Positions 11,420 through 48,761 of a DNA stretch of 64,000 nucleotides are shown here, piece after piece. The DNA comes from a bacterium. GTDB lineage: Bacteria > Zhuqueibacterota > Zhuqueibacteria > Residuimicrobiales > Krinioviventaceae. The notes under the pieces were generated by a model that made no database searches, had not been told where the DNA came from, and was given only the letters and a program-made list of their open reading frames with translations. How positions within the stretch are numbered: position 1 is the first letter of the stretch; each line of letters starts with the position of its first letter. The position numbers and the translations under genes were made by a program. The stretch spans positions 288,001-352,000 of the forward strand of contig CAXXFV010000003.1 of NCBI GenBank assembly GCA_963674595.2. The letters run 5' to 3'.

Positions 11420-11474
11420 TTGACAATTTAACATTGAATTAGTATATTTGTTCTAAGAATTTGAACCGGTTTAA
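11420..11474 (+). promoter_or_regulatory. Sigma70 promoter plus LacI-type operator of the TRAP/hexuronate operon
   Basis: TTGACA(11420)-N17-TATATT(11443); near-palindrome TTGAACCGGTTTAA at 11461-11474. Confidence 0.75.
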
Positions 11475-11493
11475 AAACTCACTGGAGGGCATA

Positions 11494-12483
11494 ATGCAGC
11501 CTATCAAATTATATCTTAAATTGTTTTCGATCTTATTGTTAGCCGTTTTTATTTTGTCAGGTTGCGGCACTAAAAGCAACGTTGTTTCATTAAAAATGGC
11601 TCATGGCCTGGATGTCAGTCATCCGGTTCACAAAGCTATGGTTTTTATGGCAGAGAAAGCCTGGGAAAAATCGGATTCAACATTAAAAGTTGATATCTAT
11701 CCAAGTGAACAATTGGGAAATGAAAAAGAGTGTATTGAACAACTGCAACTGGGAAGCCTGGCAATGACCAAAGTCTCCAGCAGCCCCCTGGAGAGTTTTA
11801 TTCCGAAATTAAAAGTATTGGCCCTCCCCTATTTGTTCCGAGATGCCGAACATAAATGGAACGTATTTAACGGACCGATTGGTAAAGAACTTTTATCTGC
11901 CGGTGAACCCGAAGGTTTAAAAGGATTATGTTTTTATGATGCAGGCGCCAGAAGTTTTTACACAACTTCTAAACCAATCCTGCACCCGGATGATCTGAAA
12001 GGTCTTAAAATAAGAACACAGCAAAGCCCGATGGCTATTAAAATGATCTCCACACTGGGCGGTTCAGCTACACCCATTTCATGGGGCGAACTTTATACCT
12101 CATTACAGCAGGGCGTTGTTGACGGTGCAGAAAACAATCAACCGAGTTTATACACCTCAAATCACTATGAAGTTTGTAAACATTATAGTCTGGATGAACA
12201 CACAATGGTTCCGGATATTGTTATGATCAGTACCATCGTGTGGAATCGTTTATCAGAGGCACATAAAAAAGCATTACAGGAAGCTATTGATGAATCCGTT
12301 CCCTATCAAATCAATCTTTGGAATGAGTTTGTTCGGGATGCAACAGATAAAATGGTGGCAAAAGGATTAAAAATATATAACCCGGATAAAGCCGCTTTTA
12401 TGGAACGAGCAAAAGAGATGTATAAAGAATTTGAAGGAACAGAAATCGGCGAACTGGCAAAACGTATTCAAAAAGTTGAGTAA
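11494..12483 (+). CDS. dctP: TRAP transporter substrate-binding lipoprotein DctP (probably uronate)
   Basis: LSGC lipobox, YPSEQLG, DLKGLKIR, ELYTSLQQGVVDGAEN; ATG at 11494 follows GGAGG. Confidence 0.92.
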   Translation: MQPIKLYLKLFSILLLAVFILSGCGTKSNVVSLKMAHGLDVSHPVHKAMVFMAEKAWEKSDSTLKVDIYPSEQLGNEKECIEQLQLGSLAMTKVSSSPLESFIPKLKVLALPYLFRDAEHKWNVFNGPIGKELLSAGEPEGLKGLCFYDAGARSFYTTSKPILHPDDLKGLKIRTQQSPMAIKMISTLGGSATPISWGELYTSLQQGVVDGAENNQPSLYTSNHYEVCKHYSLDEHTMVPDIVMISTIVWNRLSEAHKKALQEAIDESVPYQINLWNEFVRDATDKMVAKGLKIYNPDKAAFMERAKEMYKEFEGTEIGELAKRIQKVE

Positions 12484-12486
12484 ATT

Positions 12487-13002
12487 ATGTGGATAAAAAT
12501 AAAATCTGCATTGGATAAATCACTGGAATGGTTAACGGCCATCCTCATGGCAGCATTAACCATTGATGTCACATGGCAGGTTATCACCAGATTTATTTTA
12601 AAAAACCCCAGTGACTGGACAGAAGAACTGGCCACGTTTCTTATGATTTGGGTTGGCTTATTGGGTGCAGCAGTTGCATTAAACAGAGGCGCCCACCTTG
12701 GCATAGATTATTTTGTGTCAAAATTCAAACCGGCTAACCGCCTGTTTACAGAGTTGTTTGTTCATCTGTCTGTAGGATTCTTTTCTGTTGGTGTTATGTT
12801 ATTAGGTGGTCTCAAGCTTGTTACTATAACCATGGCACGCGGACAGATTTCTCCGGCATTAAAAATCCCCATGGGATATGTTTATTTAGCAATACCCATT
12901 GCCGGATTTTTCTTAACATACTATAGTCTTGAATTTTTAATAGAAACAATAATAAAATTAAAGGCTAAAAATAAAAATGATGTTCCTTATGTAAAAATAT
13001 AA
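12487..13002 (+). CDS. dctQ: TRAP transporter small permease DctQ
   Basis: Four TM helices, WTEEL, HLGID. Confidence 0.92.
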   Translation: MWIKIKSALDKSLEWLTAILMAALTIDVTWQVITRFILKNPSDWTEELATFLMIWVGLLGAAVALNRGAHLGIDYFVSKFKPANRLFTELFVHLSVGFFSVGVMLLGGLKLVTITMARGQISPALKIPMGYVYLAIPIAGFFLTYYSLEFLIETIIKLKAKNKNDVPYVKI

Positions 13003-13037
13003 TGTAATAACATTGACTCTTTAATAAAGGTTCTTCT

Positions 13038-14333
13038 ATGGATTGGCCTGTTATTGTTTTAATTACAAGTTTTCTTATATTTTTAGTATTAAATGTACCC
13101 ATAGCTGTTTCAATCGGTCTGTCATCGCTGTTGACCATTTTTACAATCGGAGGCATACCGGCATTTTTAACTATTGCACACAAAATTGCAACAGGAATAG
13201 ACAGTTTTGCATTGTTAGCTATACCATTTTTTATCCTGGCAGGACAACTAATGGGCCAGGGCGGAATTGCCAAACGTTTAATCGATTTTGCCAACGTGCT
13301 TGTCGGTAGATTTCCAGGCGGACTGTCCTTTGTCAACATTCTGACCTGCATGCTCTTTGGTGCAATATCCGGCTCTGCTGTTGCGGCCGTTTCGAGTGTT
13401 GGTGGTTTTATGATTCCGCTGATGAATAAAGAAGGTTATCACCGTGACTTTAATGCCTCTGTCACTATTACGGCGGCAACAACCGGTCTTCTTATTCCTC
13501 CGAGCAATGTAATGATTGTTTACTCCCTGGCTACAGGTGGTGCAGTTTCCATTGCCGCCATATTCCTGGCCGGATTTCTGCCGGGAATTTTAATGGGGCT
13601 TGGTTTAATGGTTGTCAGTGGATTCATATCCGTTAAAAATGGCTATGGTAAAGGTGTAACCTTTGGTTTTCAGGAAAGTATTAAAAGATTTCTAATCGCT
13701 ATCCCGGCACTGTTTTTAGTTGTACTGGTCCTTGGCGGTATTCTGGCCGGATATTTCACAGCCACGGAAGCCTCTGCTATTGCCGTTGTTTATGCGCTTA
13801 TTTTATCCGTCTTTGTTTATCGTGAAGTTAAAATAAAAGATTTACCCAAAATTTTCCTTCAGGCAGGAATCACTACCTCTGTTGTATTTCTATTAATTGG
13901 CACATCTATGGCCATGTCCTATGTTCTTGCTTATGAAAATATCCCCCAAAATATTAGCGCTGCGCTGCTGAGTATCACGCAAAACAAAATTATAATTTTA
14001 TTAATTATTAATTTATTATTATTGTTTGTCGGAACTTTTATGGATATGACGCCCGCAGTCCTTATTTTTACCCCTATTTTCCTCCCAATCGTTACAGGGC
14101 TGGGTGTGCATCCTATCCATTTTGGCATTCTGATGATTATGAATTTATGTATAGGCATTTGTACTCCACCTGTAGGTTCATGCCTTTTTGTAGGGTGTGG
14201 TATTGCCGAAACAACAATTACCAAAGTCATTCGCCATATTCTTCCATTTTTTATGGCAATGATAATCGTACTGTTTATAGTTACCTATATCCCTGCTATT
14301 TCTCTGATCGTACCAAAACTTTTTGGATTTTAA
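13038..14333 (+). CDS. dctM: TRAP transporter large permease DctM
   Basis: LLAIPFFILAG, FGAISGS, LLIPPS, FTATE, TPPVG. Confidence 0.95.
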   Translation: MDWPVIVLITSFLIFLVLNVPIAVSIGLSSLLTIFTIGGIPAFLTIAHKIATGIDSFALLAIPFFILAGQLMGQGGIAKRLIDFANVLVGRFPGGLSFVNILTCMLFGAISGSAVAAVSSVGGFMIPLMNKEGYHRDFNASVTITAATTGLLIPPSNVMIVYSLATGGAVSIAAIFLAGFLPGILMGLGLMVVSGFISVKNGYGKGVTFGFQESIKRFLIAIPALFLVVLVLGGILAGYFTATEASAIAVVYALILSVFVYREVKIKDLPKIFLQAGITTSVVFLLIGTSMAMSYVLAYENIPQNISAALLSITQNKIIILLIINLLLLFVGTFMDMTPAVLIFTPIFLPIVTGLGVHPIHFGILMIMNLCIGICTPPVGSCLFVGCGIAETTITKVIRHILPFFMAMIIVLFIVTYIPAISLIVPKLFGF

Positions 14334-14396: not shown

Positions 14397-15434
14397 ATGG
14401 CAATTACAATTTCCGACATTGCACGGATTGCAGGTGTCTCTCGTGCAACTGTTTCCGGTGTTCTTAATAACAATCCATCTGTTAGTGAAAAAACCAGGCA
14501 ACGAATACTAACAATTATCAAAGAGCATGATTACAGACCAAATGAAATCGCTCGGGCATTAGCCTTAAATCAAACAGATATTATCGGACTTATTGTTAAA
14601 GATATTTCAAATCCCCTATATAGTAAAATTGCATTGGGTGTTGAAGAGACCTGTGCAAAAATGGGGTATTCAGTCATTATTGGTAACACTCAAAAAGATA
14701 TTCAACGCGAAATTTCACACATAAATCTGCTGAAAAGACGACGTGTAGACGGGCTCATTATTTTTCCATTGCAGCGAGGTGCAGATCTGGGTCATCTTTT
14801 TGAACTCAAAGAAGAAAATTATCCTTTTGTTCTTCTTGCTGAAGTTCCCGGTATAAAAGCAGACCTTGTCCGTTCGGATGATCAACCCGGCGCCTATCAG
14901 GCCACTAAACACCTGATAAATCTGGGTAGAAAACATATCGCTTACATAACAGGGCCGCAAAACGCCCTGGCAAATGACAGAAGACTTGGCTCCTATAAGC
15001 AGGCGCTCAATGATCACAATTTATCTTTAAATGAAGAACTGATACGTCCTGGCGGCTGGAGACGGAGTGACGGCTATAAAGCCGGTAAATTAATGCTAAA
15101 CGAGCTAAAAGAATATCCGGATGGTGCATTTTGTTACAACGATGCGGTTGCAATTGGTTTCATAAGAGCATTAGTTGAACATGGATTACGAATTCCCCAG
15201 GATGTGGCTATCGTCGGGTTTGATGATGCCGGTTCTGCCGCATATTTGGAGACAGCATTAACTACAGTAGAACAGCCCGCCAAAGAAATTGGAAACAAGG
15301 CCGCTCAATTGCTTGTAGAGCGGATTAAAAATAAAAAAGAACAACAGAGAACTAAAAAGATACTTTTACCCACATCATTAGTTATTCGTGAATCATGCGG
15401 TGCCAATGAAAAAGGTTCGGTTAAAGTATTCTAA
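14397..15434 (+). CDS. LacI-family transcriptional regulator
   Basis: TISDIARIAGVSRATVS HTH, YRPNEIARAL hinge, VGFDD, LTTV. Confidence 0.95.
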   Translation: MAITISDIARIAGVSRATVSGVLNNNPSVSEKTRQRILTIIKEHDYRPNEIARALALNQTDIIGLIVKDISNPLYSKIALGVEETCAKMGYSVIIGNTQKDIQREISHINLLKRRRVDGLIIFPLQRGADLGHLFELKEENYPFVLLAEVPGIKADLVRSDDQPGAYQATKHLINLGRKHIAYITGPQNALANDRRLGSYKQALNDHNLSLNEELIRPGGWRRSDGYKAGKLMLNELKEYPDGAFCYNDAVAIGFIRALVEHGLRIPQDVAIVGFDDAGSAAYLETALTTVEQPAKEIGNKAAQLLVERIKNKKEQQRTKKILLPTSLVIRESCGANEKGSVKVF

Positions 15435-15455: not shown

Positions 15456-16997
15456 ATGAAAAGCGATCAACAACTACAAGAATTGATGAATCAAATAAAA
15501 ACTCAATTTGACATCAAAATTGAAAAATATTATGAAACATCTTTGGTCGATAAAGATCAACAGAATTATGTGCTTTTAAAAACTGAAACCAGTAAAAAAT
15601 TGTTGGTATGGGGTCAGGAAGCGGATGCTCAGTTTAAGGGCGAGTCTGTTCAGTTAAAAATAGGTGATGTTGATTATGATGTAAAACTGTGCCCGCTTAC
15701 CCATGAAAATAGTTTAATAATGAGAAAAGTCTTTCCCTGGACAGGTCCAAAAACGGTTGGGTTACAAACGAGTTTCGGTGCCGGAGACAGAATTGGTGTT
15801 GCAACCCCCGGTCATATCAGAGCGCTGAAACAATACAACATCGTTCCGGTAATTGCCCAACAATCCATTCGCGAAATGAACCGAACGGTCCGTACATCAG
15901 AAGAGGTTATGGATGATGTTACCTGGGCTGTTTTTCAGGAAGGATATAAAGATGGATTCGGTTCTGACGCTGATCACCTTAAAACAGAACAGGATATTCA
16001 AAATACATTTGCAGCCGGATTTACAGGCTTTACCGTTGATCCATCCGACCATATAAATAATGAGGCAGACACATTAACTTCGGATGATCTTGAAAAAGCA
16101 TATCTTGGCGTATTTGATTCACCTGAATCAGCACAGGAGTTTTTAAAAAAATATGCTAATAACGAGGTCACGGTAAAAGGTAATGACAGATCATTAACTC
16201 TTTTTATCCCGGAAGAAGAAGTCAAAAGACTGGCCGTAAAATATATGACGGCAATCAAACATACCATCAACTGTTATAACCTTTTAAAGTCTCTTCATGG
16301 TGATAAGGAATTTGATTTTGAAATGTCGGTAGACGAAACAGAAACACCAACAACAGTAGCTGCCCATTATATCGTAGCAAACGAATTAGCCAAAGCTGAG
16401 GTACAGTGCACTTCGTTGGCGCCGAGGTTTATTGGTGAATTTCAAAAAGCAATCGATTATATCGGTGATGTCGATACGTTCCGCCAGCAGCTTATCGATC
16501 ATGTAACAATTTCTCAACATTTTGGCGGCTACAAAATCAGCATCCATTCCGGAAGTGATAAATACTCTATCTTTCCGATTGTTGGTGAAGAAACAAAAGG
16601 CGTATTTCATGAAAAAACAGCCGGCACAAGTTATCTTGAAGCATTACGAATTGTCAGCCGACATGATACAAAGTTGTTCCGTGAGATCGCCGTATTTGCA
16701 CGCGAAAAATTTGAAAAAGAACGTTTTTCCTATCATGTAACAACAGATATGAAAAAAGTTCCGACTGTAGATCAACTGACCGATGCTCAACTGGAATCCA
16801 TGCTGAACGAAGACGATGCAAGACAGGTACTGCATATCACTTTTGGTGGTACGTTGACGGAAAAGGATGCAAACGGTAATTATATTTTCAGAAATCGTAT
16901 TCTGGATGTTTTACACAAACAGGAAGAAGAACATTATAACGTTCTGGAAACTCTTTTTATAAAACATATTGAAGCATTTGGCGTTACAAAAAAATAA
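15456..16997 (+). CDS. uxaE: Tagaturonate/fructuronate epimerase
   Basis: SFGAGDRIG, AQQSIRE, DADHLK, FEMSVDET, APRFIGEFQKAIDY, SIHSGSDK, KTAGTSYLEAL. Confidence 0.92.
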   Translation: MKSDQQLQELMNQIKTQFDIKIEKYYETSLVDKDQQNYVLLKTETSKKLLVWGQEADAQFKGESVQLKIGDVDYDVKLCPLTHENSLIMRKVFPWTGPKTVGLQTSFGAGDRIGVATPGHIRALKQYNIVPVIAQQSIREMNRTVRTSEEVMDDVTWAVFQEGYKDGFGSDADHLKTEQDIQNTFAAGFTGFTVDPSDHINNEADTLTSDDLEKAYLGVFDSPESAQEFLKKYANNEVTVKGNDRSLTLFIPEEEVKRLAVKYMTAIKHTINCYNLLKSLHGDKEFDFEMSVDETETPTTVAAHYIVANELAKAEVQCTSLAPRFIGEFQKAIDYIGDVDTFRQQLIDHVTISQHFGGYKISIHSGSDKYSIFPIVGEETKGVFHEKTAGTSYLEALRIVSRHDTKLFREIAVFAREKFEKERFSYHVTTDMKKVPTVDQLTDAQLESMLNEDDARQVLHITFGGTLTEKDANGNYIFRNRILDVLHKQEEEHYNVLETLFIKHIEAFGVTKK

Positions 16998-17863: not shown

Positions 17864-19318
17864 ATGAGTACTTTTGACATTGGACTTGTCGGGCTCGCCG
17901 TTATGGGTGAGAATTTGGTTTTAAATATGGAAAATCACGGTTTTTCAGTTGCCGTATTCAACAGAACAACAAGCAAGGTTGACAATTTTGTAAACGGCCG
18001 TGCAAAAGGCAAAAACATTAAAGGCTGTTATTCTATTGAAGAGTTGATTGCCAATTTAAAACGACCACGCAAAATCATGTTAATGGTTAAAGCCGGTGCA
18101 GCAGTAGACAGTTTTATAGAAATGCTGCTTCCGCATTTGGAAAAAGGCGACATTATCATTGACGGCGGTAACAGCCATTTTCCGGATACCATGCGACGAA
18201 CAAATTATCTTGAAGAAAAAGGTGTTCTTTTTATCGGTACCGGTGTTTCCGGCGGCGAAGAAGGCGCATTAACCGGTCCTTCAATTATGCCGGGCGGTTC
18301 AACTGAAGCATGGCCGCATGTAAAACCGATTTTTCAGGCAATTGCAGCCAAAGTTTCCGATGGTTCACCCTGCTGCGAATGGGTAGGACGTGATGGTGCA
18401 GGCCATTTTGTTAAAACAGTCCACAATGGCATCGAATACGGTGATATGCAGATGATTTGTGAAGCTTATAATTTGATGAAAAATGTTTTAGGCATGTCTA
18501 CTGAAGAAATGCACAACGTTTTTGGTGAATGGAATAAAGGCGAACTGGACAGTTATTTAATCGAAATTACCCGAGATATTCTGGCTAAAAAAGATGAAGA
18601 AACAAACGAACCGATTGTAGAATTAATTCTTGATACGGCTGGTCAAAAAGGCACCGGTAAATGGACCAGTCAGGCTGCATTGGACCTCGGCATCCCGGCA
18701 CAAACAGTTGCCGAAGCGGTGTTTGCCCGCGCTATGAGTGCTATTAAAGAAGAACGTGTTGCTGCATCCAAAGAGTTAAAAGGACCGGATGCAAAATTTA
18801 CCGGAGATAAAGAAGAATTTGTTGAAATGATCCGTAAAGCATTATACGCTTCAAAAATTTGTTCCTATGCTCAGGGTTACCAGCTCATGCGCGCAGCCGC
18901 AGCAGAATATAACTGGGACCTGAAATATGGTGAAATCGCACTGATGTGGCGCGGCGGATGTATTATTCGCGCTCACTTTTTGGAAAAAATTAAAGCAGCT
19001 TTTGATAAAAAACCGGACCTGGCAAATCTGCTGCTCGATCCGTACTTTAACAATATTATCGAACAAAATCAAAAGGCATGGCGGGCCGTTATTTCCAAAG
19101 CTGTTGAAATTGGTATTCCGGTTCCTGCATTTAACAGCGCCCTGGCTTATTATGACAGTTACCGAAACGAACGTTTACCGGCGAATCTGCTTCAAGCCCA
19201 AAGAGATTACTTTGGCGCACACACTTATGAAAGAATCGACAAACCTAGAGGTGAGTTCTTCCATACAAATTGGACAGGACGCGGTGGCACTACTTCAGCA
19301 ACAACCTATAACGCTTAG
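17864..19318 (+). CDS. gnd: 6-phosphogluconate dehydrogenase (NADP+, decarboxylating)
   Basis: [52 protein letters not shown]. Confidence 0.98.
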
Positions 19319-19335
19319 TGTCTGTTCACTGAATG

Positions 19336-19370
19336 ATTCGGCCCGTTCGATTACGGGCCGAATATTATTT
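19336..19370 (+). terminator. Hairpin after gnd
   Basis: attcggcccgt/acgggccgaat 11-bp stem, weak T tail. Confidence 0.55.
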
Positions 19371-19389
19371 TATATATTATGTGAGAAAA

Positions 19390-20157
19390 ATGAATACCAA
19401 TTTTAATTTAGAAAATAAAACAGCTCTGATAACAGGAGCCAGCCGTGGTTTGGGTAAAGCTGTTTCACTGGCTTTTGCCGACGCAGGTGCAGACATTGTT
19501 CTGGTTTCGCGAGGTGAAAAAGCTTTGCTCAAAGTGAAAGCAGAAATTGAATTAAAAAACAAAAAAGCCTGGATATTTACGCACGATTTTTCAGATACGC
19601 AGGCCATCCCTGAACTTTATGACAGAATTTTAGAACAAACAAAATCCATTGACATTATTGTCAATGCAGCCGGAATGATCTTCAGGACCGATGCAGCCGA
19701 TTTTCCGTTGGAAGAATGGAATAAAATTCTGGCCGTTAACCTGACGGCCCCTTTTGTCCTGAGCCAGTGTTTTGCAAAATCCTGTATGAAACAACAAAAA
19801 CCAGGAAAAATCATCAACTTTGCTTCTCTGCTCAGCAGAGCGGCGCGACCGTCTCTTCCGGCATATACGGCGAGCAAGGGCGGTATTGTTCAGTTAACAG
19901 CAGCGCTGGCTGTTGAATGGGCGGAGCATCGTATTAATGTCAATGCCATCGGCCCCGGATATTTTGAAACAGAAATGACACGGCCGTTGTCTGAAGATAA
20001 AGAATTTTCAGAATGGGTCAAACAACGTACGCCCATGAATCGTTGGGGACAGCCGTCCGAGCTGACAGGTACGGCCGTCTTTTTAGCATCCGAAGCATCA
20101 AATTTTATTACCGGACAGACGATTTATGTAGACGGCGGCTGGCTGGCCAATTTATAA
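19390..20157 (+). CDS. SDR oxidoreductase, gluconate 5-dehydrogenase (IdnO/Gno)/KduD-like
   Basis: TGASRGLG, YTASKGG, NAIGPGYFETEMT, RTPMNRWG, YVDGGW. Confidence 0.82.
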   Translation: MNTNFNLENKTALITGASRGLGKAVSLAFADAGADIVLVSRGEKALLKVKAEIELKNKKAWIFTHDFSDTQAIPELYDRILEQTKSIDIIVNAAGMIFRTDAADFPLEEWNKILAVNLTAPFVLSQCFAKSCMKQQKPGKIINFASLLSRAARPSLPAYTASKGGIVQLTAALAVEWAEHRINVNAIGPGYFETEMTRPLSEDKEFSEWVKQRTPMNRWGQPSELTGTAVFLASEASNFITGQTIYVDGGWLANL

Positions 20158-20181: not shown

Positions 20182-21450
20182 ATGATCGGACAAGGATTCA
20201 CAGATAAAAATTTAAATGAACAGCAGGTTCAGGAACTTTGCCGACAGGCTTTTGAAGAGAATAAAAACCTGCTTGAAGGGAAAAAAGTATTGGCCATTAT
20301 TCCGGACCATTCCCGAACCGCGCCAATTGATATAATGTTTCGCACTTTTTATAACCTGTTGGCAGATAAAGTTAAAAATCTTGATTTTATCATTGCCTTA
20401 GGGACCCATCCGCCTATGACGGAAGAAATGATTTATCAGCGTGTGGGTATAACCGCAGAACAGCATCAAAACGTGTACTCAAAAGCACGTTTTTTCAATC
20501 ATCACTGGGACGACCCCGCGCAACTGGCGAATATCGGGACAATTTCAGCAAAACAAGTTGCCGAAATATCCAACGGACTTTTGAATGAAAAAGTTGATGT
20601 AACAATCAATAAAATGGTGCTGGATTATGATGTTCTCTTCATCATTGGCCCGACGTTCCCGCACGAAGTTGTGGGATTTTCAGGCGGAAATAAATATTTA
20701 TTTCCGGGTATCGGCGGAAAAGAAATTATCGACATGTTTCACTGGCTGGGCGCTTTAATAACCAATCCGGCAATTATAGGGACAAAATACACACCCGTCC
20801 GTAAAGTTGTGGACATCGCCGCTGCATTTTTACCGGTTCCTCGCTTATGTGCAAGTCTGGTTGTGAAGGGAACCGACCTTGCCGGTTTATATATCGGTAC
20901 CCCGGAAGAGGCCTGGGCTTCCGCATCAAATTTATCAGATAAATTACATATTGTATATAAGGACCATCCTTTTAAAAGTGTTTTATCATGTGCACCTGCC
21001 ATGTACGATGAAATATGGACAGGCGGTAAATGCATGTACAAGCTGGAACCCGTTGTAGCAGATGGCGGGGAACTGATTATTTATGCTCCTCATATCAGCG
21101 AGGTTTCCATCACACATGGAAAAATTATCGAACAAATCGGTTACCATGTTCGAGATTATTTTACAAAACAGCCTGAAAAATTTGCCGATATTCCGGGCGG
21201 TGTTAAAGCACATTCAACACATGTCAGGGGTGTCGGTACATTTGAAAATGGCATAGAAAAACCCAGGGTGCAGGTGACGCTGGCCACAAAAATACCGGAA
21301 GAAACTTGTAAAAAGATTAATCTGGGTTATCGTGATCCGGATTCGATTGACGTTTCCGAGTGGCAGGACCGGGAAGATGAAGGTTATTTATATGTTAAAA
21401 AAGCAGGTGAAATGCTGTATCGGTTAAAAAATGATCCGTTTAAATTATAA
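20182..21450 (+). CDS. LarA-family nickel-pincer-dependent alpha-hydroxyacid racemase/epimerase
   Basis: PDHSRT, IALGTHPPM, NHHW, PHEVVGFSGGNKY, GGKCMYK, GGELII. Confidence 0.88.
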   Translation: MIGQGFTDKNLNEQQVQELCRQAFEENKNLLEGKKVLAIIPDHSRTAPIDIMFRTFYNLLADKVKNLDFIIALGTHPPMTEEMIYQRVGITAEQHQNVYSKARFFNHHWDDPAQLANIGTISAKQVAEISNGLLNEKVDVTINKMVLDYDVLFIIGPTFPHEVVGFSGGNKYLFPGIGGKEIIDMFHWLGALITNPAIIGTKYTPVRKVVDIAAAFLPVPRLCASLVVKGTDLAGLYIGTPEEAWASASNLSDKLHIVYKDHPFKSVLSCAPAMYDEIWTGGKCMYKLEPVVADGGELIIYAPHISEVSITHGKIIEQIGYHVRDYFTKQPEKFADIPGGVKAHSTHVRGVGTFENGIEKPRVQVTLATKIPEETCKKINLGYRDPDSIDVSEWQDREDEGYLYVKKAGEMLYRLKNDPFKL

Positions 21451-21483: not shown

Positions 21484-22776
21484 ATGGCGTTAAATAAAAA
21501 TGTTGTGGTTGCACAATCCGGTGGTCCATCGCCGGTCATTAATAATACCCTTCGCGGTATTATTGAAACGTGCAAAATGTTTCCAGATAAATTTGACAAA
21601 ATCTATGGCGGATGGCATGGTATTGAAGGCGTTCTGAAAGAAGAACTACTGGATATTACCGCACAAACAGAAGAAGAAATCAGTTTATTAAGAACAACAC
21701 CCGCCGCCGGTTCCATCGGTACATGTCGTTACAAACTGAAAGCAAACCAACAGGAAGATTTTGAACGGGTTGTAGAGGTTTTAAAGGCCCATAATATCGG
21801 CTACTTTTTCTACATCGGTGGTAATGATTCCATGGACACGGCAAACAAAATTGCACAAATAGCCCATGAAAAAGGATTGGACCTGATTGCTGTCGGTGGT
21901 TCCAAAACAATCGATAACGACGTAGGTGATTCCGAATTTAAGCTTGTCGATCACACACCCGGTTATGGTTCTGTCGCCAAATACTGGGCCATGAATGTGC
22001 AAAATGCCAATGAAGAAAACATGGGATCCTGCCCGGCTGATCCTGTGCTTGTTATGCAGGTGATGGGACGAAAAATAGGATTTATTCCCGCCGCAGCTCG
22101 TTTGGCAGATGTAAAACGTGAATTACCATTGCAAATTTATATGCCGGAATCAAACCTTACCCTGGATGAACTGACCGACAATGTAAATGACGAATTAGCC
22201 AAAAGCGGCCGTTGTATTGTTGTTGTTAGTGAAGGATTTGACGTTGGTGATCTTGGTGAAATGAAAGACGGATTCGGTCATACCGAATTCAGCGCCAGCA
22301 TGTTTACCGCGCAGCAGATTATCGTTAACCACCTTAATAAAGTGGGTATCAAAGCAAAAGGCGCTGCCAGAGGTCAGGTTGTTGGAACAGACCAGCGTGA
22401 TACAATGATTTACGCTTCAACGGTTGATTTGGATGAAGCCTACAAAGTCGGACAAAATGCCGTTGTTATCGCTGTTGAACACGGATCCGGTTACATGTCA
22501 ACAATCTTGCGCCGACCTGGATTGATTTACAATGTTGATTTTGACAAGGTCCCGCTTGATGAAGTTGCCAATTCTGAACGGGAATTCCCGAAAAACTGGA
22601 TTACGGAAAATAAAATTGACGTAACAGATGATTTTGTAAAATATGCCCGTCCCTTAATCGGAGAAGAATGGGTCAGCGTACCTGTGATAAACGGTATTCA
22701 ACGTTTTGCACGATTTGCACCCATATTTGCAGACAAAAAACTGCCGGCCTATGTGCCGCAAACAGAACGAAAATAA
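21484..22776 (+). CDS. PfkA-family kinase with PPi-dependent signature (Pfp-like, divergent)
   Basis: AQSGGPSPVINN, GTCRYKL, GGNDS, KTIDND, MGR, VVSEG. Confidence 0.85.
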   Translation: MALNKNVVVAQSGGPSPVINNTLRGIIETCKMFPDKFDKIYGGWHGIEGVLKEELLDITAQTEEEISLLRTTPAAGSIGTCRYKLKANQQEDFERVVEVLKAHNIGYFFYIGGNDSMDTANKIAQIAHEKGLDLIAVGGSKTIDNDVGDSEFKLVDHTPGYGSVAKYWAMNVQNANEENMGSCPADPVLVMQVMGRKIGFIPAAARLADVKRELPLQIYMPESNLTLDELTDNVNDELAKSGRCIVVVSEGFDVGDLGEMKDGFGHTEFSASMFTAQQIIVNHLNKVGIKAKGAARGQVVGTDQRDTMIYASTVDLDEAYKVGQNAVVIAVEHGSGYMSTILRRPGLIYNVDFDKVPLDEVANSEREFPKNWITENKIDVTDDFVKYARPLIGEEWVSVPVINGIQRFARFAPIFADKKLPAYVPQTERK

Positions 22777-22817: not shown

Positions 22818-23702
22818 ATGTCAGATCCCCAAGCACCCTTGAAAGATTTGCAGCCAAAACATGAATATTTGGTAGCGATCGACTCGGATGGTTGTGCCTT
22901 TGATACAATGGAAATCAAACACAAAGAATGTTTTATCCCCAATATTATTAAATATTGGGATCTTCAAAGCGTATCCAAATACGCCAGAATGGCGGCCGAA
23001 TTTGTTAACCTGTATTCAAAATGGCGCGGTATTAACCGTTTTCCGGCGTTGACCATGGTTTTTGATCTGCTGCAGGAATGGCCGGATGTTCAAAAACGAC
23101 ATGTTAAAATACCACAGGCACAAGCCGTGCGTGACTGGATAGAACGGGAAACAAAACTGGGAAACCCGGCATTAAAGGCACTTGTTGAAAAAACCAGTGA
23201 TCCGGTACTAACACAAGCCCTTGACTGGAGTGAAGCTGTAAATGCAACCGTAACCGATATGGTGCACGGAGTCCCTCCTTTTCCGTTCGTTAAAGAAAGC
23301 CTGGAAAAAATTTCAGAATGGGCGGACATTATCGTTTGTTCGGCAACCCCAAATGAAGCTTTACAGCGTGAATGGGAAGAACACGACATTGCCAAATACA
23401 CGCGTGTTATTGCAGGCCAGGAAATGGGTAGTAAAAAAGAACATTTAGCTTTTATGACCCAAAATAAATATAAAAGTGATCATGTTCTTATGATTGGCGA
23501 TGCACCGGGAGACCGGAAAGCAGCGGAAGCCAACAATACCCTCTTTTTTCCAATCAAACCCGGTCACGAAGATGAAAGCTGGGAATTCTTTTTAAACAAT
23601 GCCTCGGACAAGTTTAAAAACGGAGCATATACGGCCGAGTATCAGGCAGGGTTAATCAAGGAATTTGAAGCCCTGTTGCCGACGACACCTCCCTGGAAAT
23701 AA
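22818..23702 (+). CDS. HAD-superfamily hydrolase
   Basis: IDSDGCAFD (motif I), CSAT (II), K (III), MIGDAPGD (IV). Confidence 0.85.
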   Translation: MSDPQAPLKDLQPKHEYLVAIDSDGCAFDTMEIKHKECFIPNIIKYWDLQSVSKYARMAAEFVNLYSKWRGINRFPALTMVFDLLQEWPDVQKRHVKIPQAQAVRDWIERETKLGNPALKALVEKTSDPVLTQALDWSEAVNATVTDMVHGVPPFPFVKESLEKISEWADIIVCSATPNEALQREWEEHDIAKYTRVIAGQEMGSKKEHLAFMTQNKYKSDHVLMIGDAPGDRKAAEANNTLFFPIKPGHEDESWEFFLNNASDKFKNGAYTAEYQAGLIKEFEALLPTTPPWK

Positions 23703-23711
23703 TGTTTTATT

Positions 23712-23746
23712 AAAAGCCTTTTCATAATTAATGAAAAGGCTTTTTC
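23712..23746 (+). terminator. Intrinsic terminator closing the hexuronate cluster
   Basis: aaaagccttttcat/atgaaaaggcttttt perfect inverted repeat. Confidence 0.8.
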
Positions 23747-24565: not shown

Positions 24566-26185
24566 ATGCTTCAAAACAGCTTTTTAAAAACTGTCTTTCT
24601 AATGCTCGTTTTTTCGGCCGGGATAATGCTGAGAATGTTGAATATTCAGGCAGATCCACCGGCCGGTGACATCTCTCGGTCCGGTTCCTTTCTTGGTGAT
24701 GAAGGTATTTATACACACAATGCACAGAACTTTTATCTAACGGGACACTGGTATCTTGAGGACAGTTTTAATGCGGCTGTAAACACGCCGTTTTATTTTC
24801 TGTATAACAGCTTTCTTTTTAAAAACTTTGGACAGAGTTTAAAAACTGCACGTATGGGCAGTATTATTACCAGCATTATTTTTATTCTTTGCCTGTTTCT
24901 GTTTGTCAAAAAAATTGAAAATTCTTTTTCATATCTCATACTTTTACTTTTTCTGTTAAATTTTCCACTTTATATCTATAGCAGACTCGCTTTAATGGAA
25001 AATATGCTGCTTCTCTTTAGCTGCATTGCAATACTGGTATTATTTTATTTACACCGGTCTGTTTGGTTCACCATTCTATTTTGGGTAGTGGTTATTACAG
25101 GATATTTGACAAAATCCCTGATTATTTTTCTCGTTCCTGTTTATTTTATCTATCTCTGGTTCGGCTCCATACCCAAAAAACGAAAACATCTATTCATGAC
25201 ATTTTTTGTAATATTGTTATTTATTCCATTGTATTATTTATTTTGGATTCATCCTTATGCAGCGGATTGGCATTATTTCGAACAACTCAATATCGCTTCT
25301 CGGATGTCGTTTTCCATTGTGGAGATTATAAAGAATGTCGCGAGATCAATTATACATTTAAAATTCTATGAATTTATGCCGGTCCTATATACAATCGGTT
25401 TGTATACATTATTTGCACCCGTTACTTTGAAATCCCCAAACATGAAAAAATTTATACTAATCAACCGGATTTGGTTTTTCACAGCATTTGTTTTTCTTGC
25501 CCTGTTCCCCTATTCTCCACCGAGATACTGGCTTGTTGCGATTCCACCTGTAATTATACTTGCTGTGTTGTTTTTACATCAATTCGCAGATCTTTATAGT
25601 AATAATTCAAAAAAAACAGTCTTTATTGTTGCGATGATCGCCCTTTTACAAATATTTTTTGGATTGTACAGGTTTTTCTTTTTAAACCAGCATTATATTA
25701 GTTGTTTTTTGCCGGTGTTAGCATTTTTGCCCCTCTATATCCTTTTTCAAAAAGATTTTTTGAAAAAGCCGGCTTTAAAAAAATTCATTCTAATCAGCGC
25801 TGTCATTCTAATTGCAGGTTTTCAAATTATCTATTATCAATCAACCGTAAAATATTCATTGTTTAATGCGATGAAATCGGTTGAAAATATTATTAAAAAC
25901 GATCCCCAATACCCCAATATTGTCATCGCAGGAGATAATGCATCTTTATTTTCACTTGAATTAAAAACGAAAGCAGTAGATACATTTTACAGACCCAATC
26001 TGTTATCAAAACGTTTTTTGAAAAACAAGCCCGATTATTTAATACTTGAAGATCCGTCGTCACTACCAGATATAAAAAATCGCCTGGGCAGTGATTCCTG
26101 CAAATTTCAAAAGCTGGCTTTATTCACAATTATGAAAAATTATAAACACGGCAAGAACACCCTGTTTTTTAAAATTGTCAATTAA
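24566..26185 (+). CDS. GT-C (ArnT/PMT, family 39-like) membrane glycosyltransferase
   Basis: N-terminal TM then DE motif (GDEGIY), P-x-Y, many TM helices, YSRLALME, PPRY. Confidence 0.7.
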   Translation: MLQNSFLKTVFLMLVFSAGIMLRMLNIQADPPAGDISRSGSFLGDEGIYTHNAQNFYLTGHWYLEDSFNAAVNTPFYFLYNSFLFKNFGQSLKTARMGSIITSIIFILCLFLFVKKIENSFSYLILLLFLLNFPLYIYSRLALMENMLLLFSCIAILVLFYLHRSVWFTILFWVVVITGYLTKSLIIFLVPVYFIYLWFGSIPKKRKHLFMTFFVILLFIPLYYLFWIHPYAADWHYFEQLNIASRMSFSIVEIIKNVARSIIHLKFYEFMPVLYTIGLYTLFAPVTLKSPNMKKFILINRIWFFTAFVFLALFPYSPPRYWLVAIPPVIILAVLFLHQFADLYSNNSKKTVFIVAMIALLQIFFGLYRFFFLNQHYISCFLPVLAFLPLYILFQKDFLKKPALKKFILISAVILIAGFQIIYYQSTVKYSLFNAMKSVENIIKNDPQYPNIVIAGDNASLFSLELKTKAVDTFYRPNLLSKRFLKNKPDYLILEDPSSLPDIKNRLGSDSCKFQKLALFTIMKNYKHGKNTLFFKIVN

Positions 26186-48696: not shown

Positions 48697-48761
48697 AAAA
48701 CCGAAACATTTTCCCCAAAGCTTGGTATTATTAGGAGAGCTTGAGAAAATCCGGAGGAAAA

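What the first reader, a model, noticed from the sequence alone, without database searches (positions are those of the whole stretch)
21484..22776. PPi-signature PFK homologue as candidate pyrophosphate-dependent gluconate (sugar-acid) kinase
Seen: GGNDS and KTIDND give the Asp104/Lys124 pair of PPi-dependent PFKs, but the C-terminal fructose-6-P-binding motif (LGHxQR/GYxQR) reads VVGTDQRD. A conventional pfkA (GGDGT, LGHLQRGG) lies at 48762. The gene follows the LarA homologue, and the route to Gnd needs a gluconate kinase that is absent from the cluster. Inference: a PFK-fold enzyme repurposed to phosphorylate an aldonate at C6 with PPi. Alternative: it is a PPi-PFK acting on F6P/S7P to recycle pentose phosphates without transaldolase.
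Basis: partly seen in the sequence, partly recalled or inferred. Interest (0 to 1): 0.78.

Follow-up and report, generated by a model that had tools for sequence, protein, structure and literature searches.

The report
PFK-like kinase in hexuronate cluster
A gene that databases call a pyrophosphate-dependent phosphofructokinase sits, always beside an uncharacterised phosphatase-like partner, in a widely conserved sugar-acid breakdown cluster at the place where a gluconate kinase is expected, so it probably has a new job.

Summary
The ORF 21484-22776 (+) is real. Those motifs do not set it apart: GGNDS, KTIDND and a variable residue before QR are also usual in generic group-III PFKs.

What sets it apart is clade and context. 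PFKx forms its own, very conserved clade. In 55 loci from many phyla it is followed by a novel HAD-fold protein (54 of 55) and accompanied by Gnd (49), a LarA epimerase homologue (45), an SDR (41) and often UxaE or a TRAP transporter.

- Known gluconate kinases are missing from 49 of 50 such genomes.
- All 50 carry other PFKs, and 44 of 50 have a transaldolase-family gene.
- In relatives without PFKx, a KdgK-like PfkB sugar-acid kinase occupies the same slot upstream of the HAD gene.

Best reading: a PPi-dependent hexonate kinase feeding 6-phosphogluconate to Gnd in a hexuronate pathway. This is inferred, not assayed. The acceptor (gluconate, mannonate, keto-uronate or KDG) and the HAD partner's role remain open. 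It is a new variant of a known kind, and I rate the interest as fairly high.

The parts
11420..11448 (+). best promoter-like site of the region (TTGACA-17-TATATT), just upstream of dctP
   Evidence: 11 of 12 matches. The number of such sites in the region is not above shuffles (52 against a mean of 46), so only its position is suggestive.
11461..14333 (+). TRAP transporter DctP (11461-12483), DctQ (12487-13002), DctM (13038-14333); hexuronate-type binding protein
   Evidence: The best solved relatives of DctP are 4x8r (E 1.1e-77) and 4n8y (E 6.7e-75), described as bound to glucuronate and galacturonate in PMC11668362 (passage).
14397..15434 (+). LacI-family regulator
15456..16997 (+). UxaE-family tagaturonate/fructuronate epimerase
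   Evidence: Pfam PF16257, 579 bits
17010..17789 (+). SDR, D-mannonate oxidoreductase-like (candidate fructuronate reductase)
   Evidence: NF006132 scores 273.4 bits, just under its cut-off of 281
17864..19318 (+). Gnd, decarboxylating 6-phosphogluconate dehydrogenase (extra copy; a second gnd lies on contig C23)
   Evidence: TIGR00873 scores 787 bits against a cut-off of 426.7; second copy found
19333..20157 (+). second SDR, KduD / gluconate 5-dehydrogenase-like
   Evidence: all hits below equivalog cut-offs
20182..21450 (+). LarA homologue of the GntE (D-gluconate/D-mannonate 2-epimerase) type
   Evidence: Best solved relative is 4NAR, E 3.8e-69, which is T. maritima GntE2 (PMC7583248 passage). 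The GTH, PHE..GFSGGNK and FHW stretches align with LarA's. NF052594 scores 186 bits, below its cut-off of 500.
21484..22776 (+). PFKx: PFK-fold kinase of a distinct clade of the short PPi-type PFK subfamily; candidate PPi-dependent hexonate kinase (the finding)
22818..23702 (+). HAD-fold protein (294 aa) with intact catalytic motifs and an enlarged, basic cap; constant downstream partner of PFKx; function unknown
23712..23744 (+). terminator-like hairpin (14 pairs, T-rich tail) 10 nt after the HAD stop; likely end of the transcription unit
   Evidence: 19 terminator-like sites in the region against 15.6 in shuffles; only its position is suggestive

Best explanation
PFKx is the kinase of a hexuronate-to-pentose-phosphate pathway.

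Proposed route, with each step inferred from family assignment:
1. Glucuronate or galacturonate is taken up by the TRAP system.
2. It is isomerised by UxaC, which is encoded elsewhere on contig C6.
3. Tagaturonate is epimerised to fructuronate by UxaE.
4. Fructuronate is reduced to D-mannonate by the SDR.
5. D-mannonate is epimerised at C2 to D-gluconate by the GntE-type LarA homologue.
6. Gluconate is phosphorylated on O6 by PFKx, giving 6-phosphogluconate.
7. The cluster's own Gnd decarboxylates 6-phosphogluconate to ribulose 5-phosphate.

PFKx keeps the catalytic machinery of PFKs (Asp144/Asp146 of KTIDND, Met-Gly-Arg 194-196, Glu250). It also keeps the Asp115/Lys141 pair typical of PPi-dependent enzymes, so the donor is most likely PPi. 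The carboxylate of the acid would take the place of the 6-phosphate of fructose 6-phosphate, at Arg296 and Arg305.

Shown: fold, family, clade, conserved residues, synteny, distribution. Inferred: acceptor, donor, and the order of the epimerase and kinase steps. The adjacent HAD protein belongs to the same module, but its reaction is unknown. My best guess is a phosphatase for a phospho-sugar acid, acting as overflow valve or proofreader.
For: Family and fold.
- PF00365 and NF010675 score above their cut-offs.
- The best solved relatives are the PPi-PFKs 3k2q and 3hno (E 2.5e-72 and 9.3e-69).
- The AlphaFold model has pLDDT 96.2, with TM 0.87 to 3hno.

Residues. All catalytic and phosphate-binding positions are kept in 32-34 of 34 clade members.

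Own clade.
- Full-length representatives at 52-63% identity score 397-594 bits. The next full-length hit has 43% identity and 262 bits.
- The 34 PFKx rows form one branch: SH-aLRT 61 for all 34, and 95 for the core 30.
- Clade-specific residues sit next to the active-site motifs: a 5-residue insert after DND, Gln192 for Glu, Lys197 for Asp/Asn/His, and Asp303 before QR.

Synteny.
- In 55 loci (68-87% identity; MAGs labelled KSB1, Calditrichota, Ignavibacteria, Bacteroidales, Elusimicrobia, Planctomycetes, Hydrogenedentota and others), the counts are HAD 54, HAD directly downstream 52, Gnd 49, LarA 45, SDR 41, UxaE 24, TRAP 12.
- Among the 35 loci with at least 4 kb on both sides: HAD 35, Gnd 33, LarA 30.
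- Minimal forms are Gnd-PFKx-HAD plus TRAP (L033, L064) and PFKx-HAD-Gnd-SDR (L057, L058).

Missing kinase.
- The own genome (97.6% complete) has no TIGR01313 match, and its FGGY genes are GlpK, ribulokinase and two XylB-like genes.
- Across 50 PFKx genomes, TIGR01313 is over its cut-off in 1 and TIGR01314 in 0.
- In the own phylum, SKI-type GntK is in 11 of 167 genomes, in none of the 30 with PFKx and none of the 67 with the HAD gene.

Not the glycolytic PFK. The own genome has 4 other PFK genes, and all 50 PFKx genomes have 2-8 PFK-family matches.

Not a general transaldolase substitute. PF00923 is found in 44 of 50 genomes.

Replacement in the same slot.
- In PFKx-less genomes of the phylum, the gene next to the HAD gene is a PfkB kinase. 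It is KDG-kinase/IolC-like, 273-342 bits to the kinase part of NF041633, below all cut-offs.
- This holds in 11 of 19 fetched loci and in 15 of 37 genomes by coordinates, mostly in the order kinase then HAD.
- Orthologues of that kinase (49% identity or more) occur in 29 of 37 HAD-positive, PFKx-negative genomes but in only 4 of 30 PFKx-positive genomes.
- The own genome keeps a copy next to an Eda homologue on contig C8. KDG phosphorylation is therefore covered there, and PFKx is left for the Gnd branch.

Precedent.
- A GntE-GntK-Gnd branch was proposed for T. maritima, and GntE activity on free mannonate has been shown (PMC7583248, passages).
- A mannonate kinase plus a 6-phosphomannonate 2-epimerase were shown in L. 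suebicus extracts, with the genes unknown (PMC6978723, passages).
Against: - No biochemical datum exists.
- PFKx keeps every residue that generic relatives use for the sugar phosphate (Arg296, Gln304-Arg305, Glu250, Met194-Arg196). Sequence alone therefore cannot exclude F6P or S7P.
- The own genome has no transaldolase-family gene, so an S7P kinase would be useful there.
- Silence of the GntK models is weak evidence. Three PFKx-less genomes with SDR-Gnd-LarAH18 clusters also show no GntK over the cut-offs.
- One FGGY kinase of the own genome is unassigned (XylB model 236 bits). FGGY genes scoring 272-323 bits to the GntK model occur in 28 of 167 genomes of the phylum.
- The PfkB kinase that replaces PFKx looks like a KDG kinase and is paired with Eda in some genomes. 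The shared activity could be KDG phosphorylation rather than gluconate phosphorylation. Eda also lies in 7 of the 55 PFKx loci.
- In 8 of 19 HAD loci from PFKx-less genomes no kinase is adjacent. Five of these have LarA next to the HAD gene.
- A phosphatase-like partner next to a kinase is not explained by the simple pathway.
- LarC (nickel insertion for the LarA cofactor) was not found in the own genome and is present in only 18 of 50 PFKx genomes, so the epimerase step itself is uncertain.
- Kin are not independent, and all close relatives are metagenome-assembled genomes.
Confidence: 0.45

Rival explanations
1. PFKx is a sugar-acid kinase, but the acceptor is not gluconate. One option is a 5-keto-hexonate: fructuronate, tagaturonate or 5-ketogluconate. 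These are carboxylate analogues of ketose 6-phosphates and carry the same CH2OH next to the keto carbon that PFKs phosphorylate. The other options are D-mannonate or 2-keto-3-deoxygluconate. The SDR and the LarA homologue would then act on the phosphorylated acid (6-phospho-5-keto-mannonate to 6-phosphomannonate to 6-phosphogluconate) before Gnd.
For: - PFKx keeps the complete ketose-binding set of PFKs.
- L. suebicus extracts phosphorylate mannonate first and then epimerise 6-phosphomannonate (PMC6978723 passages).
- The kinase that replaces PFKx is KdgK/IolC-like. IolC phosphorylates a 5-keto acid at C6 (recalled).
- An SDR lies directly upstream of PFKx in most Bacteroidota-type loci, and Eda lies in 7 of 55 loci.
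Against: - Minimal clusters without SDR and LarA (L033, L064: Gnd-PFKx-HAD plus TRAP) or without LarA (L057, L058) still end in Gnd. This is simplest if gluconate itself is phosphorylated.
- T. maritima GntE2, the closest solved relative of the window's LarA, works on free mannonate.
- The own genome has a separate KdgK-like/Eda pair.
Confidence: 0.25
2. PFKx is an ordinary reversible PPi-PFK acting on fructose 6-phosphate and/or sedoheptulose 7-phosphate. It is placed in the cluster to process the pentose phosphates made by Gnd (the sedoheptulose-bisphosphate route without transaldolase, or PPi-driven glycolysis). The kinase that makes 6-phosphogluconate would be an unrecognised enzyme elsewhere.
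For: - It scores above the cut-off of the PPi-PFK subfamily model.
- All F6P-site residues are kept.
- No transaldolase-family gene was found in the own genome.
- The M. capsulatus enzyme of the same broad group prefers S7P, as cited in PMC5673643 (passage).
- PFKx-less Gnd/LarAH18 clusters also lack any recognised gluconate kinase, so unknown kinases do exist.
Against: - 44 of 50 PFKx genomes have a transaldolase-family gene.
- Every one of the 50 has at least one other PFK, and the own genome has four.
- PFKx is a separate, tightly conserved clade with changes beside the active-site motifs.
- Its slot is taken by a KdgK-like sugar-acid kinase, not by a Pfk-2 or 1-PFK-like one, in relatives (pfkB/1-PFK models score only 22-33 bits).
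- It leaves the cluster without a kinase, and it leaves the constant HAD partner unexplained.
Confidence: 0.15
3. Phosphoryl relay. PFKx still makes a ketose bisphosphate (FBP or SBP) from PPi. The HAD protein, working as a phosphotransferase through its aspartyl-phosphate, passes that phosphate to the sugar acid. The pair together would form the PPi:gluconate phosphotransferase.
For: - PFKx and the HAD gene are on one strand within 634 nt in 28 of 28 genomes of the phylum that have both (coordinates), and adjacent in 52 of 55 loci.
- The HAD protein has intact nucleophile and acid/base aspartates and a basic cap (Lys34, Lys36, Arg57, Arg70, Arg74 invariant in 47 sequences).
- Five Gnd/LarA clusters hold the HAD gene but no kinase.
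- The HAD gene and SKI-type GntK never co-occur in 167 genomes.
- FBP can phosphorylate a HAD mutase (beta-phosphoglucomutase; recalled, not checked).
Against: - The HAD gene equally accompanies a KdgK-like PfkB kinase that is not expected to make FBP.
- No HAD enzyme is known to work as a net kinase.
- No structural relative closer than generic sugar-phosphate phosphatases was found (TM 0.5 or less).
Confidence: 0.05

Closest known systems
Short (group III, PRK14072/NF010675) PPi-dependent phosphofructokinases, e.g. the solved Nitrosospira (3hno) and Marinobacter (3k2q) proteins and the M. capsulatus enzyme
   Same: Same fold (TM 0.87), length and model hit above cut-off. Same GGNDS, KTIDND, MGR, SEG and R..QR positions. 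The PPi signature Asp/Lys is shared.
   Different: Only 34-43% identity, and a separate clade. A 5-residue insert after the catalytic DND, a 6-residue insert before Arg296 and a shorter loop after SEG. Gln192, Lys197/Ile198, Arg206/Asp209/Arg212 and Asp303 are clade-specific. The context is a sugar-acid/Gnd cluster with a HAD partner rather than glycolysis.
T. maritima hexuronate branch GntE-GntK-Gnd (proposed by Rodionova et al. 2012, which was not readable here; GntE activity shown in PMC7583248)
   Same: UxaE, a mannonate oxidoreductase-type SDR, a GntE-type LarA homologue (4NAR, E 3.8e-69) and Gnd lie in one cluster. The logic is the same: mannonate to gluconate to 6-phosphogluconate to ribulose 5-phosphate.
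   Different: No FGGY or SKI gluconate kinase is present. Its place is taken by PFKx plus a HAD protein. The donor is probably PPi rather than ATP. LarC was not found in this genome.
L. suebicus galacturonate route (mannonate kinase plus 6-phosphomannonate 2-epimerase; PMC6978723)
   Same: Hexuronate is funnelled to 6-phosphogluconate and Gnd. The kinase gene is not identified there either.
   Different: There the activity is ATP-dependent in extracts, and phosphorylation comes before epimerisation. The order is unknown here, and no PFK-family candidate was proposed there (passages read).
PfkB-family sugar-acid kinases (KdgK, IolC, KguK)
   Same: A member of this group occupies the PFKx slot upstream of the HAD gene in PFKx-less relatives. 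It is the likely functional equivalent.
   Different: Unrelated fold (ribokinase-like), and ATP-dependent.
HAD-IA sugar-phosphate phosphatases and mutases (phosphoglycolate phosphatase, YniC, CbbY, beta-phosphoglucomutase, BT2127 pyrophosphatase)
   Same: The partner protein has the four HAD motifs (Asp22, Asp24, Ser175/Thr177, Lys206, Asp228, Asp232) and a C1-type cap.
   Different: No sequence match to any solved chain at E up to 1. TM is 0.5 or less. The cap is about 140 residues long and strongly basic. No NCBIfam model is reached.

Membership tests
Phosphofructokinase family (Pfam PF00365) | profile match above the gathering score | tested here: met
   123.4 bits against 30.9, but only profile positions 1-228 of 277 are matched
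Phosphofructokinase family (Pfam PF00365) | PFK fold | tested here: met
   Model pLDDT 96.2. Foldseek: 3hno TM 0.87, 1pfk TM 0.66.
Phosphofructokinase family (Pfam PF00365) | catalytic Asp pair of TIDND, the MGR loop, Glu of SEG | tested here: met
   D144, D146, M194-G195-R196 and E250 are invariant in 34 of 34 clade members
PPi-dependent PFK, short group III (NCBIfam NF010675) | subfamily model above cut-off | tested here: met
   375.5 bits against 273
PPi-dependent PFK, short group III (NCBIfam NF010675) | Asp at the E. coli Gly104 position and Lys at the Gly124 position (the PPi signature; its meaning is recalled from the literature) | tested here: met
   D115 and K141, aligned against the own genome's GGDGT-type PFK
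PPi-dependent PFK, short group III (NCBIfam NF010675) | groups with members of proven F6P/S7P activity | tested here: inconclusive
   PFKx is a separate clade at 43% identity or less to all other representatives. No sequence of a characterised enzyme other than the two structural-genomics entries was at hand.
PPi-dependent PFK, short group III (NCBIfam NF010675) | phosphorylates fructose 6-phosphate with PPi | not testable with these tools
   needs an enzyme assay
Gluconate kinase (EC 2.7.1.12), known families (SKI-type TIGR01313; FGGY-type TIGR01314) | sequence membership | tested here: not met
   PFKx is PFK-fold, and neither model appears among its hits. If it is a gluconate kinase, it is a third, analogous type.
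Gluconate kinase (EC 2.7.1.12), known families (SKI-type TIGR01313; FGGY-type TIGR01314) | gluconate to 6-phosphogluconate activity | not testable with these tools
   Inferred only from context.
GntE-GntK-Gnd hexuronate branch (T. maritima type) | GntE-type LarA homologue next to Gnd | tested here: met
   4NAR at E 3.8e-69; Gnd TIGR00873 at 787 bits
GntE-GntK-Gnd hexuronate branch (T. maritima type) | UxaE and fructuronate/mannonate oxidoreductase | tested here: inconclusive
   UxaE is clear (579 bits). The SDR scores 273.4 against a cut-off of 281 for NF006132.
GntE-GntK-Gnd hexuronate branch (T. maritima type) | FGGY gluconate kinase in the cluster | tested here: not met
GntE-GntK-Gnd hexuronate branch (T. 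maritima type) | NPN cofactor synthesis (LarC) present | tested here: not met
   PF01969 was not found in the own genome (97.6% complete). It is present in 18 of 50 PFKx genomes.
HAD superfamily (the partner protein) | motifs I-IV with nucleophile Asp and Asp+2 | tested here: met
   D22, D24, S175/T177, K206, D228 and D232 are invariant in 47 sequences. HAD_2 scores 34 bits against 23.8.

The most novel reading that the evidence does not exclude
A whole clade of proteins annotated as diphosphate--fructose-6-phosphate 1-phosphotransferase is in fact a PPi-driven sugar-acid kinase. The search returned 8000 candidates, its cap, and the 120 listed relatives share 78-89% identity, with source labels from six or more phyla. 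The clade works as an obligate pair with a new HAD-family enzyme.

Together they would form an unrecognised, ATP-free entry of hexuronates and gluconate into the pentose phosphate pathway. That entry replaces GntK in many uncultured anaerobe-rich phyla.

In the boldest form, the HAD partner is not a mere phosphatase but part of the phosphoryl-transfer chemistry (a relay or a mutase). That would explain why it stays when the kinase fold is exchanged (PFK-type for PfkB-type).
Probability: 0.5. Interest if true: 0.8.

Novelty: new variant of a known kind. Interest (0 to 1): 0.72.

Why it matters
The PfkA-type PFK family is treated as a marker of glycolysis. To my knowledge, its accepted acceptors are ketose phosphates (F6P, S7P). 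My literature searches found no paper that proposes a sugar-acid acceptor or that links a PFK homologue to the GntE/Gnd hexuronate branch.

If PFKx is a sugar-acid kinase, several things follow:
- Thousands of database entries are misnamed, and metabolic reconstructions of KSB1, Calditrichota, Ignavibacteria, Bacteroidales, Planctomycetes and other MAGs over-count PPi-PFKs and miss a hexuronate/gluconate route. PMC5673643 shows how such genes are currently read as S7P kinases.
- The redox-neutral galacturonate-to-pentose-phosphate pathway, whose kinase gene is still unknown in L. suebicus, gains a PPi-dependent and therefore ATP-saving version of interest for pectin conversion.
- The constant HAD partner, which stays when the kinase fold is swapped, points to a step of sugar-acid metabolism that is not yet understood.

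Tried and rejected
- **Motif argument.** I expected the altered C-terminal motif and a lost Lys before MGR (seen against 3k2q/3hno) to mark loss of the 6-phosphate site. The wider alignment showed that both positions vary among generic group-III PFKs, so I dropped the argument.
- **Complex prediction of PFKx with the HAD protein.** No verdict (score 0.00 against a mark of 0.32). This is no evidence either way.
- **RNA evidence.** No RNA holder was listed.
- **Rodionova et al. 2012 (PMC4505799).** Not held. What I say of it comes from passages in PMC7583248 and PMC6978723.
- **Partner protein searches.** The HAD protein against solved sequences gave no match at E up to 1. NCBIfam gave nothing above cut-off. 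The ESM Atlas returned only unnamed HAD clusters. Foldseek returned only generic HAD-IA phosphatases.
- **GntK complementarity control in another phylum.** Only 3 of 401 genomes had a LarA relative at E up to 1e-40. These three lack PFKx but also lack any GntK above the cut-offs, so the control did not support a simple either/or pattern. It did reveal a LarAH18-HAD operon (G322).
- **Literature searches.** For a PFK-like sugar-acid kinase: searches found nothing relevant. For ligands of the TRAP relatives: which was useful through PMC11668362.
- **Idea that the HAD protein serves the LarA cofactor.** Rejected, because the HAD gene is also present in clusters without LarA (L033, L056, L057, L058, L064).
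- **Caps and closed material.** Eda/KdgK status of the PFKx genomes outside my loci, and LarB/LarE, could therefore not be checked. Supplementary tables were closed. Table S1 of PMC7583248 (gene contexts of LarAH groups 18-20) and the expression tables of PMC5673643 may bear directly on this.
Full report
**1. What is there**

The ORF at 21484-22776 (+) starts with ATG and encodes 430 residues.
- It matches Pfam PFK (123 bits) and the NCBIfam subfamily model for short PPi-dependent PFKs (NF010675, 375.5 bits, cut-off 273).
- Its best solved relatives are the structural-genomics PPi-PFKs 3k2q and 3hno (E 2.5e-72 and 9.3e-69).
- An AlphaFold model built on a 114-row alignment has pLDDT 96.2 and superposes on 3hno with TM 0.87.
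- The conventional PFK with GGDGT and LGHLQRGG lies at 48741-49871.

**2. The motif argument does not hold, but the protein is still special**

I aligned two groups:
- 34 PFKx sequences: the window's own, 29 of the 51 full-length ones recovered from related loci, and 4 distant representatives.
- 80 generic group-III PFKs: 80 of the 89 representatives of 380-470 aa.

In generic members GGNDS and KTIDND are the norm (N 76, D 69, K 78 of 80). Arg296 (67/80) and Gln304-Arg305 (66 and 73/80) are kept in both groups. The Lys before MGR that I first thought was lost is not conserved in generic members either.

What is specific to PFKx lies beside the active-site motifs:
- a 5-residue insert right after the catalytic DND;
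- NEEN at 176-179;
- Gln192 where 72 of 80 generic members have Glu;
- Lys197-Ile198 after MGR, where generic members have Asp/Asn/His-Ala;
- Arg206, Asp209 and Arg212;
- a 6-residue insert before Arg296;
- Asp303 before QR, where generic members have Leu.

In a scan of 1.84 billion representatives, full-length relatives fall into two sets. One has 52-63% identity (397-594 bits). The next starts at 43% identity (262 bits). In a maximum-likelihood tree the 34 PFKx rows form one branch: SH-aLRT 61 for all 34, and 95 for the core 30. Close relatives share 78-89% identity with the window protein, although their source labels span KSB1, Ignavibacteriaceae, Calditrichia, Acidobacteriota, Marinimicrobia and others.

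**3. The cluster in the window**

From a strong promoter-like site at 11420 to a 14-pair terminator-like hairpin at 23712, the + strand carries the following genes:
- a TRAP transporter;
- a LacI regulator;
- UxaE (579 bits);
- an SDR just under the D-mannonate oxidoreductase cut-off (273 against 281);
- Gnd (787 bits);
- a KduD/gluconate-5-dehydrogenase-like SDR;
- a LarA homologue;
- PFKx;
- a 294-aa HAD-fold protein.

The TRAP binding protein is closest to 4x8r and 4n8y, which hold glucuronate and galacturonate according to PMC11668362 (passage).

The LarA homologue is closest to 4NAR (E 3.8e-69). 4NAR is T. maritima GntE2, shown to epimerise D-mannonate to D-gluconate (PMC7583248 passages).

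Elsewhere in the genome (6.6 Mb, 97.6% complete):
- UxaC lies on contig C6.
- No UxuA-type mannonate dehydratase was found.
- A second gnd and a zwf exist.

The cluster therefore reads as hexuronate to fructuronate, to mannonate, to gluconate, to 6-phosphogluconate, to ribulose 5-phosphate. That is the branch proposed for T. maritima, and one shown in a variant order in L. suebicus extracts (PMC6978723 passages). Here it has no recognisable gluconate kinase: TIGR01313 gave no match, and the FGGY genes are GlpK, ribulokinase and two XylB-like genes, one of them unassigned.

**4. Conservation of the context**

A scan of one genome per species returned 55 loci with a PFKx relative (68-87% identity), all from MAGs of many phyla. 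I scored them by tblastn with the window's proteins, requiring E up to 1e-8 and at least 60 aligned residues:

| Neighbour | All 55 loci | 35 loci with at least 4 kb on both sides |
|---|---|---|
| HAD | 54 (the miss ends 2 bp after PFKx) | 35 |
| HAD directly downstream | 52 | 33 |
| Gnd | 49 | 33 |
| LarA homologue | 45 | 30 |
| SDR | 41 | 31 |
| UxaE | 24 | 18 |
| TRAP | 12 | 12 |

The LarA homologues are of two kinds, about 70% and about 30% identical to the window's. Minimal forms are Gnd-PFKx-HAD beside a TRAP system (L033, L064), PFKx-HAD-Gnd-SDR (L057, L058) and PFKx-HAD-Gnd (L056). The core is therefore kinase, HAD protein and Gnd.

**5. Tests of the rivals at genome level**

- SKI-type GntK is over its cut-off in 1 genome, and FGGY-type GntK in 0 (best 318 bits against 648).
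- A transaldolase-family gene is present in 44.
- All 50 have 2-8 PFK-family matches, so PFKx is never the only PFK. The own genome has four others.

The own genome, however, has no transaldolase-family gene. The S7P reading stays possible for it.

A control went against a simple either/or pattern. Of 401 genomes of another phylum, 3 had a LarA relative. Two carry UxaC-like-LacI-mannonate oxidoreductase-Gnd-LarAH18 clusters. None has PFKx, and none has a GntK above the cut-offs. Absence of the curated GntK models is therefore weak evidence by itself.

**6. The partner and the swap of kinase fold**

The HAD protein:
- It is as conserved as PFKx. In the 47-row alignment (the window's protein plus 46 of 49 full-length locus copies), the others are 50-83% identical to the window's.
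- All HAD catalytic residues and five basic cap residues are invariant.
- Its model (pLDDT 94.7) resembles only generic sugar-phosphate phosphatases and mutases (TM 0.5 or less).
- It has no sequence relative among solved chains.

In the own phylum (167 genomes), the HAD gene is present in 67 and PFKx in 30. The 67 include two genomes flagged unpublished, G608 and G612.
- 28 of the 30 PFKx genomes have both genes, always on one strand, within 634 nt, with the kinase first (coordinates).
- The two exceptions (one genus) have an aldo-keto-reductase-like gene after PFKx.
- 39 genomes have the HAD gene without PFKx.

I fetched 19 such loci, chosen for contig length and spread over families, so they are not a random sample. 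Results:
- 10 of them lie in UxaC/UxaE/SDR/Gnd clusters.
- 8 have LarA.
- In 11 the gene next to the HAD gene is a PfkB-family kinase.

By coordinates, 15 of 37 genomes show this adjacency. In 14 of those 15 the kinase is upstream, the same order as PFKx then HAD.

This kinase is KDG-kinase/IolC-like: 273-342 bits to the kinase half of NF041633 and 141-208 bits to KDG kinase models, all below their cut-offs. The Pfk-2 and 1-PFK models score only 22-33 bits.

Orthologues at 49% identity or more occur in 29 of 37 HAD-positive, PFKx-negative genomes, but in only 4 of 30 PFKx-positive ones. One of the four is the own genome, where the copy sits next to an Eda homologue on contig C8.

SKI-type GntK occurs in 11 of the 167 genomes and never together with the HAD gene or PFKx. 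FGGY genes scoring 272-323 bits to the GntK model occur as follows (G612 is among the 14):

| Genome group | With such an FGGY gene |
|---|---|
| PFKx-positive | 1 of 30 |
| HAD-positive, PFKx-negative | 14 of 39 |
| The rest | 13 of 98 |

Kin are not independent, so these are patterns, not statistics.

**7. Reading**

The same slot, upstream of the same HAD gene in the same Gnd/LarA/SDR cluster, is filled either by PFKx or by a ribokinase-fold sugar-acid kinase. That is the signature of non-orthologous displacement. It is the strongest argument that PFKx phosphorylates a sugar acid rather than F6P.

- **Donor.** It is inferred to be PPi from the Asp115/Lys141 pair and the lack of an ATP-type GGDG motif. 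The meaning of these residues is recalled from the PFK literature.
- **Acceptor: gluconate.** It gives the simplest account of the minimal clusters and of a GntE that acts on free mannonate.
- **Acceptor: keto-uronates.** They are the closest chemical mimics of F6P.
- **Acceptor: mannonate.** It is phosphorylated first in L. suebicus.
- **Acceptor: KDG.** The KdgK-like nature of the replacement, and Eda in 7 of 55 PFKx loci, keep it in play.

The HAD partner is not explained by any simple pathway. My working guess is an overflow or proofreading phosphatase for a phospho-sugar acid. A mutase or relay role is the bolder option. The complex prediction gave no verdict.

**8. Loose end that bears on the pathway**

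LarC, needed to make the nickel-pincer cofactor of LarA enzymes, was not found in the own genome. It is present in only 18 of 50 PFKx genomes. Yet the LarA homologue keeps the residues that align with LarA's cofactor and catalytic positions. Either the cofactor is obtained otherwise, or these homologues work differently.

**9. Novelty**

The pathway idea is known, and so are the fold and family. What would be new:
- a sugar-acid acceptor for a PfkA-type PFK;
- PPi as the donor for this step;
- the HAD partner.

Three full-text searches found no paper proposing this. PMC5673643 shows such genes being read as S7P kinases.

Noticed in passing
window 20182-21450 and whole genome G000: The GntE-type LarA homologue keeps the residues that align with LarA's cofactor-binding and catalytic positions. 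Yet no LarC (PF01969) was found in the own genome (97.6% complete), and only 18 of 50 PFKx-bearing genomes have one. Among those lacking it is a single-chromosome assembly whose LarA is 74% identical to the window's.
   Followed up: partly
L074:8131-10386 (genome G322): A LarAH18 hexonate-epimerase gene is followed 21 nt later by an orthologue of the HAD partner (55% identity over 287 residues). This genome has no PFKx match and no Gnd nearby, so the HAD family is also tied to LarA-type epimerases on their own.
   Followed up: partly
L084, L085, L089, L095 (genomes G522, G523, G567, G521): The pair of KdgK-like PfkB kinase followed by the HAD gene also occurs as a two-gene unit outside any Gnd/LarA cluster.
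   Followed up: no
L100:7998-10307 (genome G545; also G546): This is the only genus where PFKx lacks the HAD partner. There the gene after PFKx is a 291-aa protein with weak aldo-keto-reductase (DkgA/DkgB-like) matches.
   Followed up: no
whole genome G000: The genome has five PFK-family genes, no transaldolase-family gene and no UxuA-type mannonate dehydratase. A KdgK-like/Eda pair lies on contig C8. One of the other PPi-type PFKs may serve a sedoheptulose-bisphosphate route.
   Followed up: partly
L007:1495-2913 (G000 contig C23): An unassigned FGGY kinase (XylB model 236 bits against a cut-off of 380; GntK model 146 bits) lies next to a sodium:solute symporter. It is a possible alternative sugar or sugar-acid kinase of this genome.
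   Followed up: no
L072:3984-5357 and L073:6793-7428: A 458-aa protein with no Pfam or NCBIfam hit, but with an amidohydrolase-like DIHTHL motif, lies upstream of LacI-SDR-Gnd-LarAH18 in two genomes. It may be a divergent uronate isomerase.
   Followed up: no
window 52945-55572: An 875-aa fusion of a nucleotidyltransferase domain with a GHMP/galactokinase-like kinase lies next to an NAD-dependent epimerase/dehydratase gene.
   Followed up: no
window 3284-4012: A short (242 aa) ORF has a Rho RNA-binding domain and only part of the ATPase domain. It is possibly a truncated or mis-started rho.
   Followed up: no
window 24566-26185 and 7864-9675: Two ORFs of 539 and 603 aa have no Pfam or NCBIfam match. 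The first lies just beyond the terminator-like hairpin that ends the cluster.
   Followed up: no
literature lead (Thermogutta terrifontis R1): PMC5673643 lists a PPi-PFK, THTE_2629, three locus tags from an SDR, THTE_2632, and reports that the genome has no gluconokinase and no transaldolase. This resembles the Planctomycete PFKx-HAD-Gnd-SDR loci L057/L058 and could offer a cultured model. It is not verified, because no sequence was at hand.
   Followed up: no
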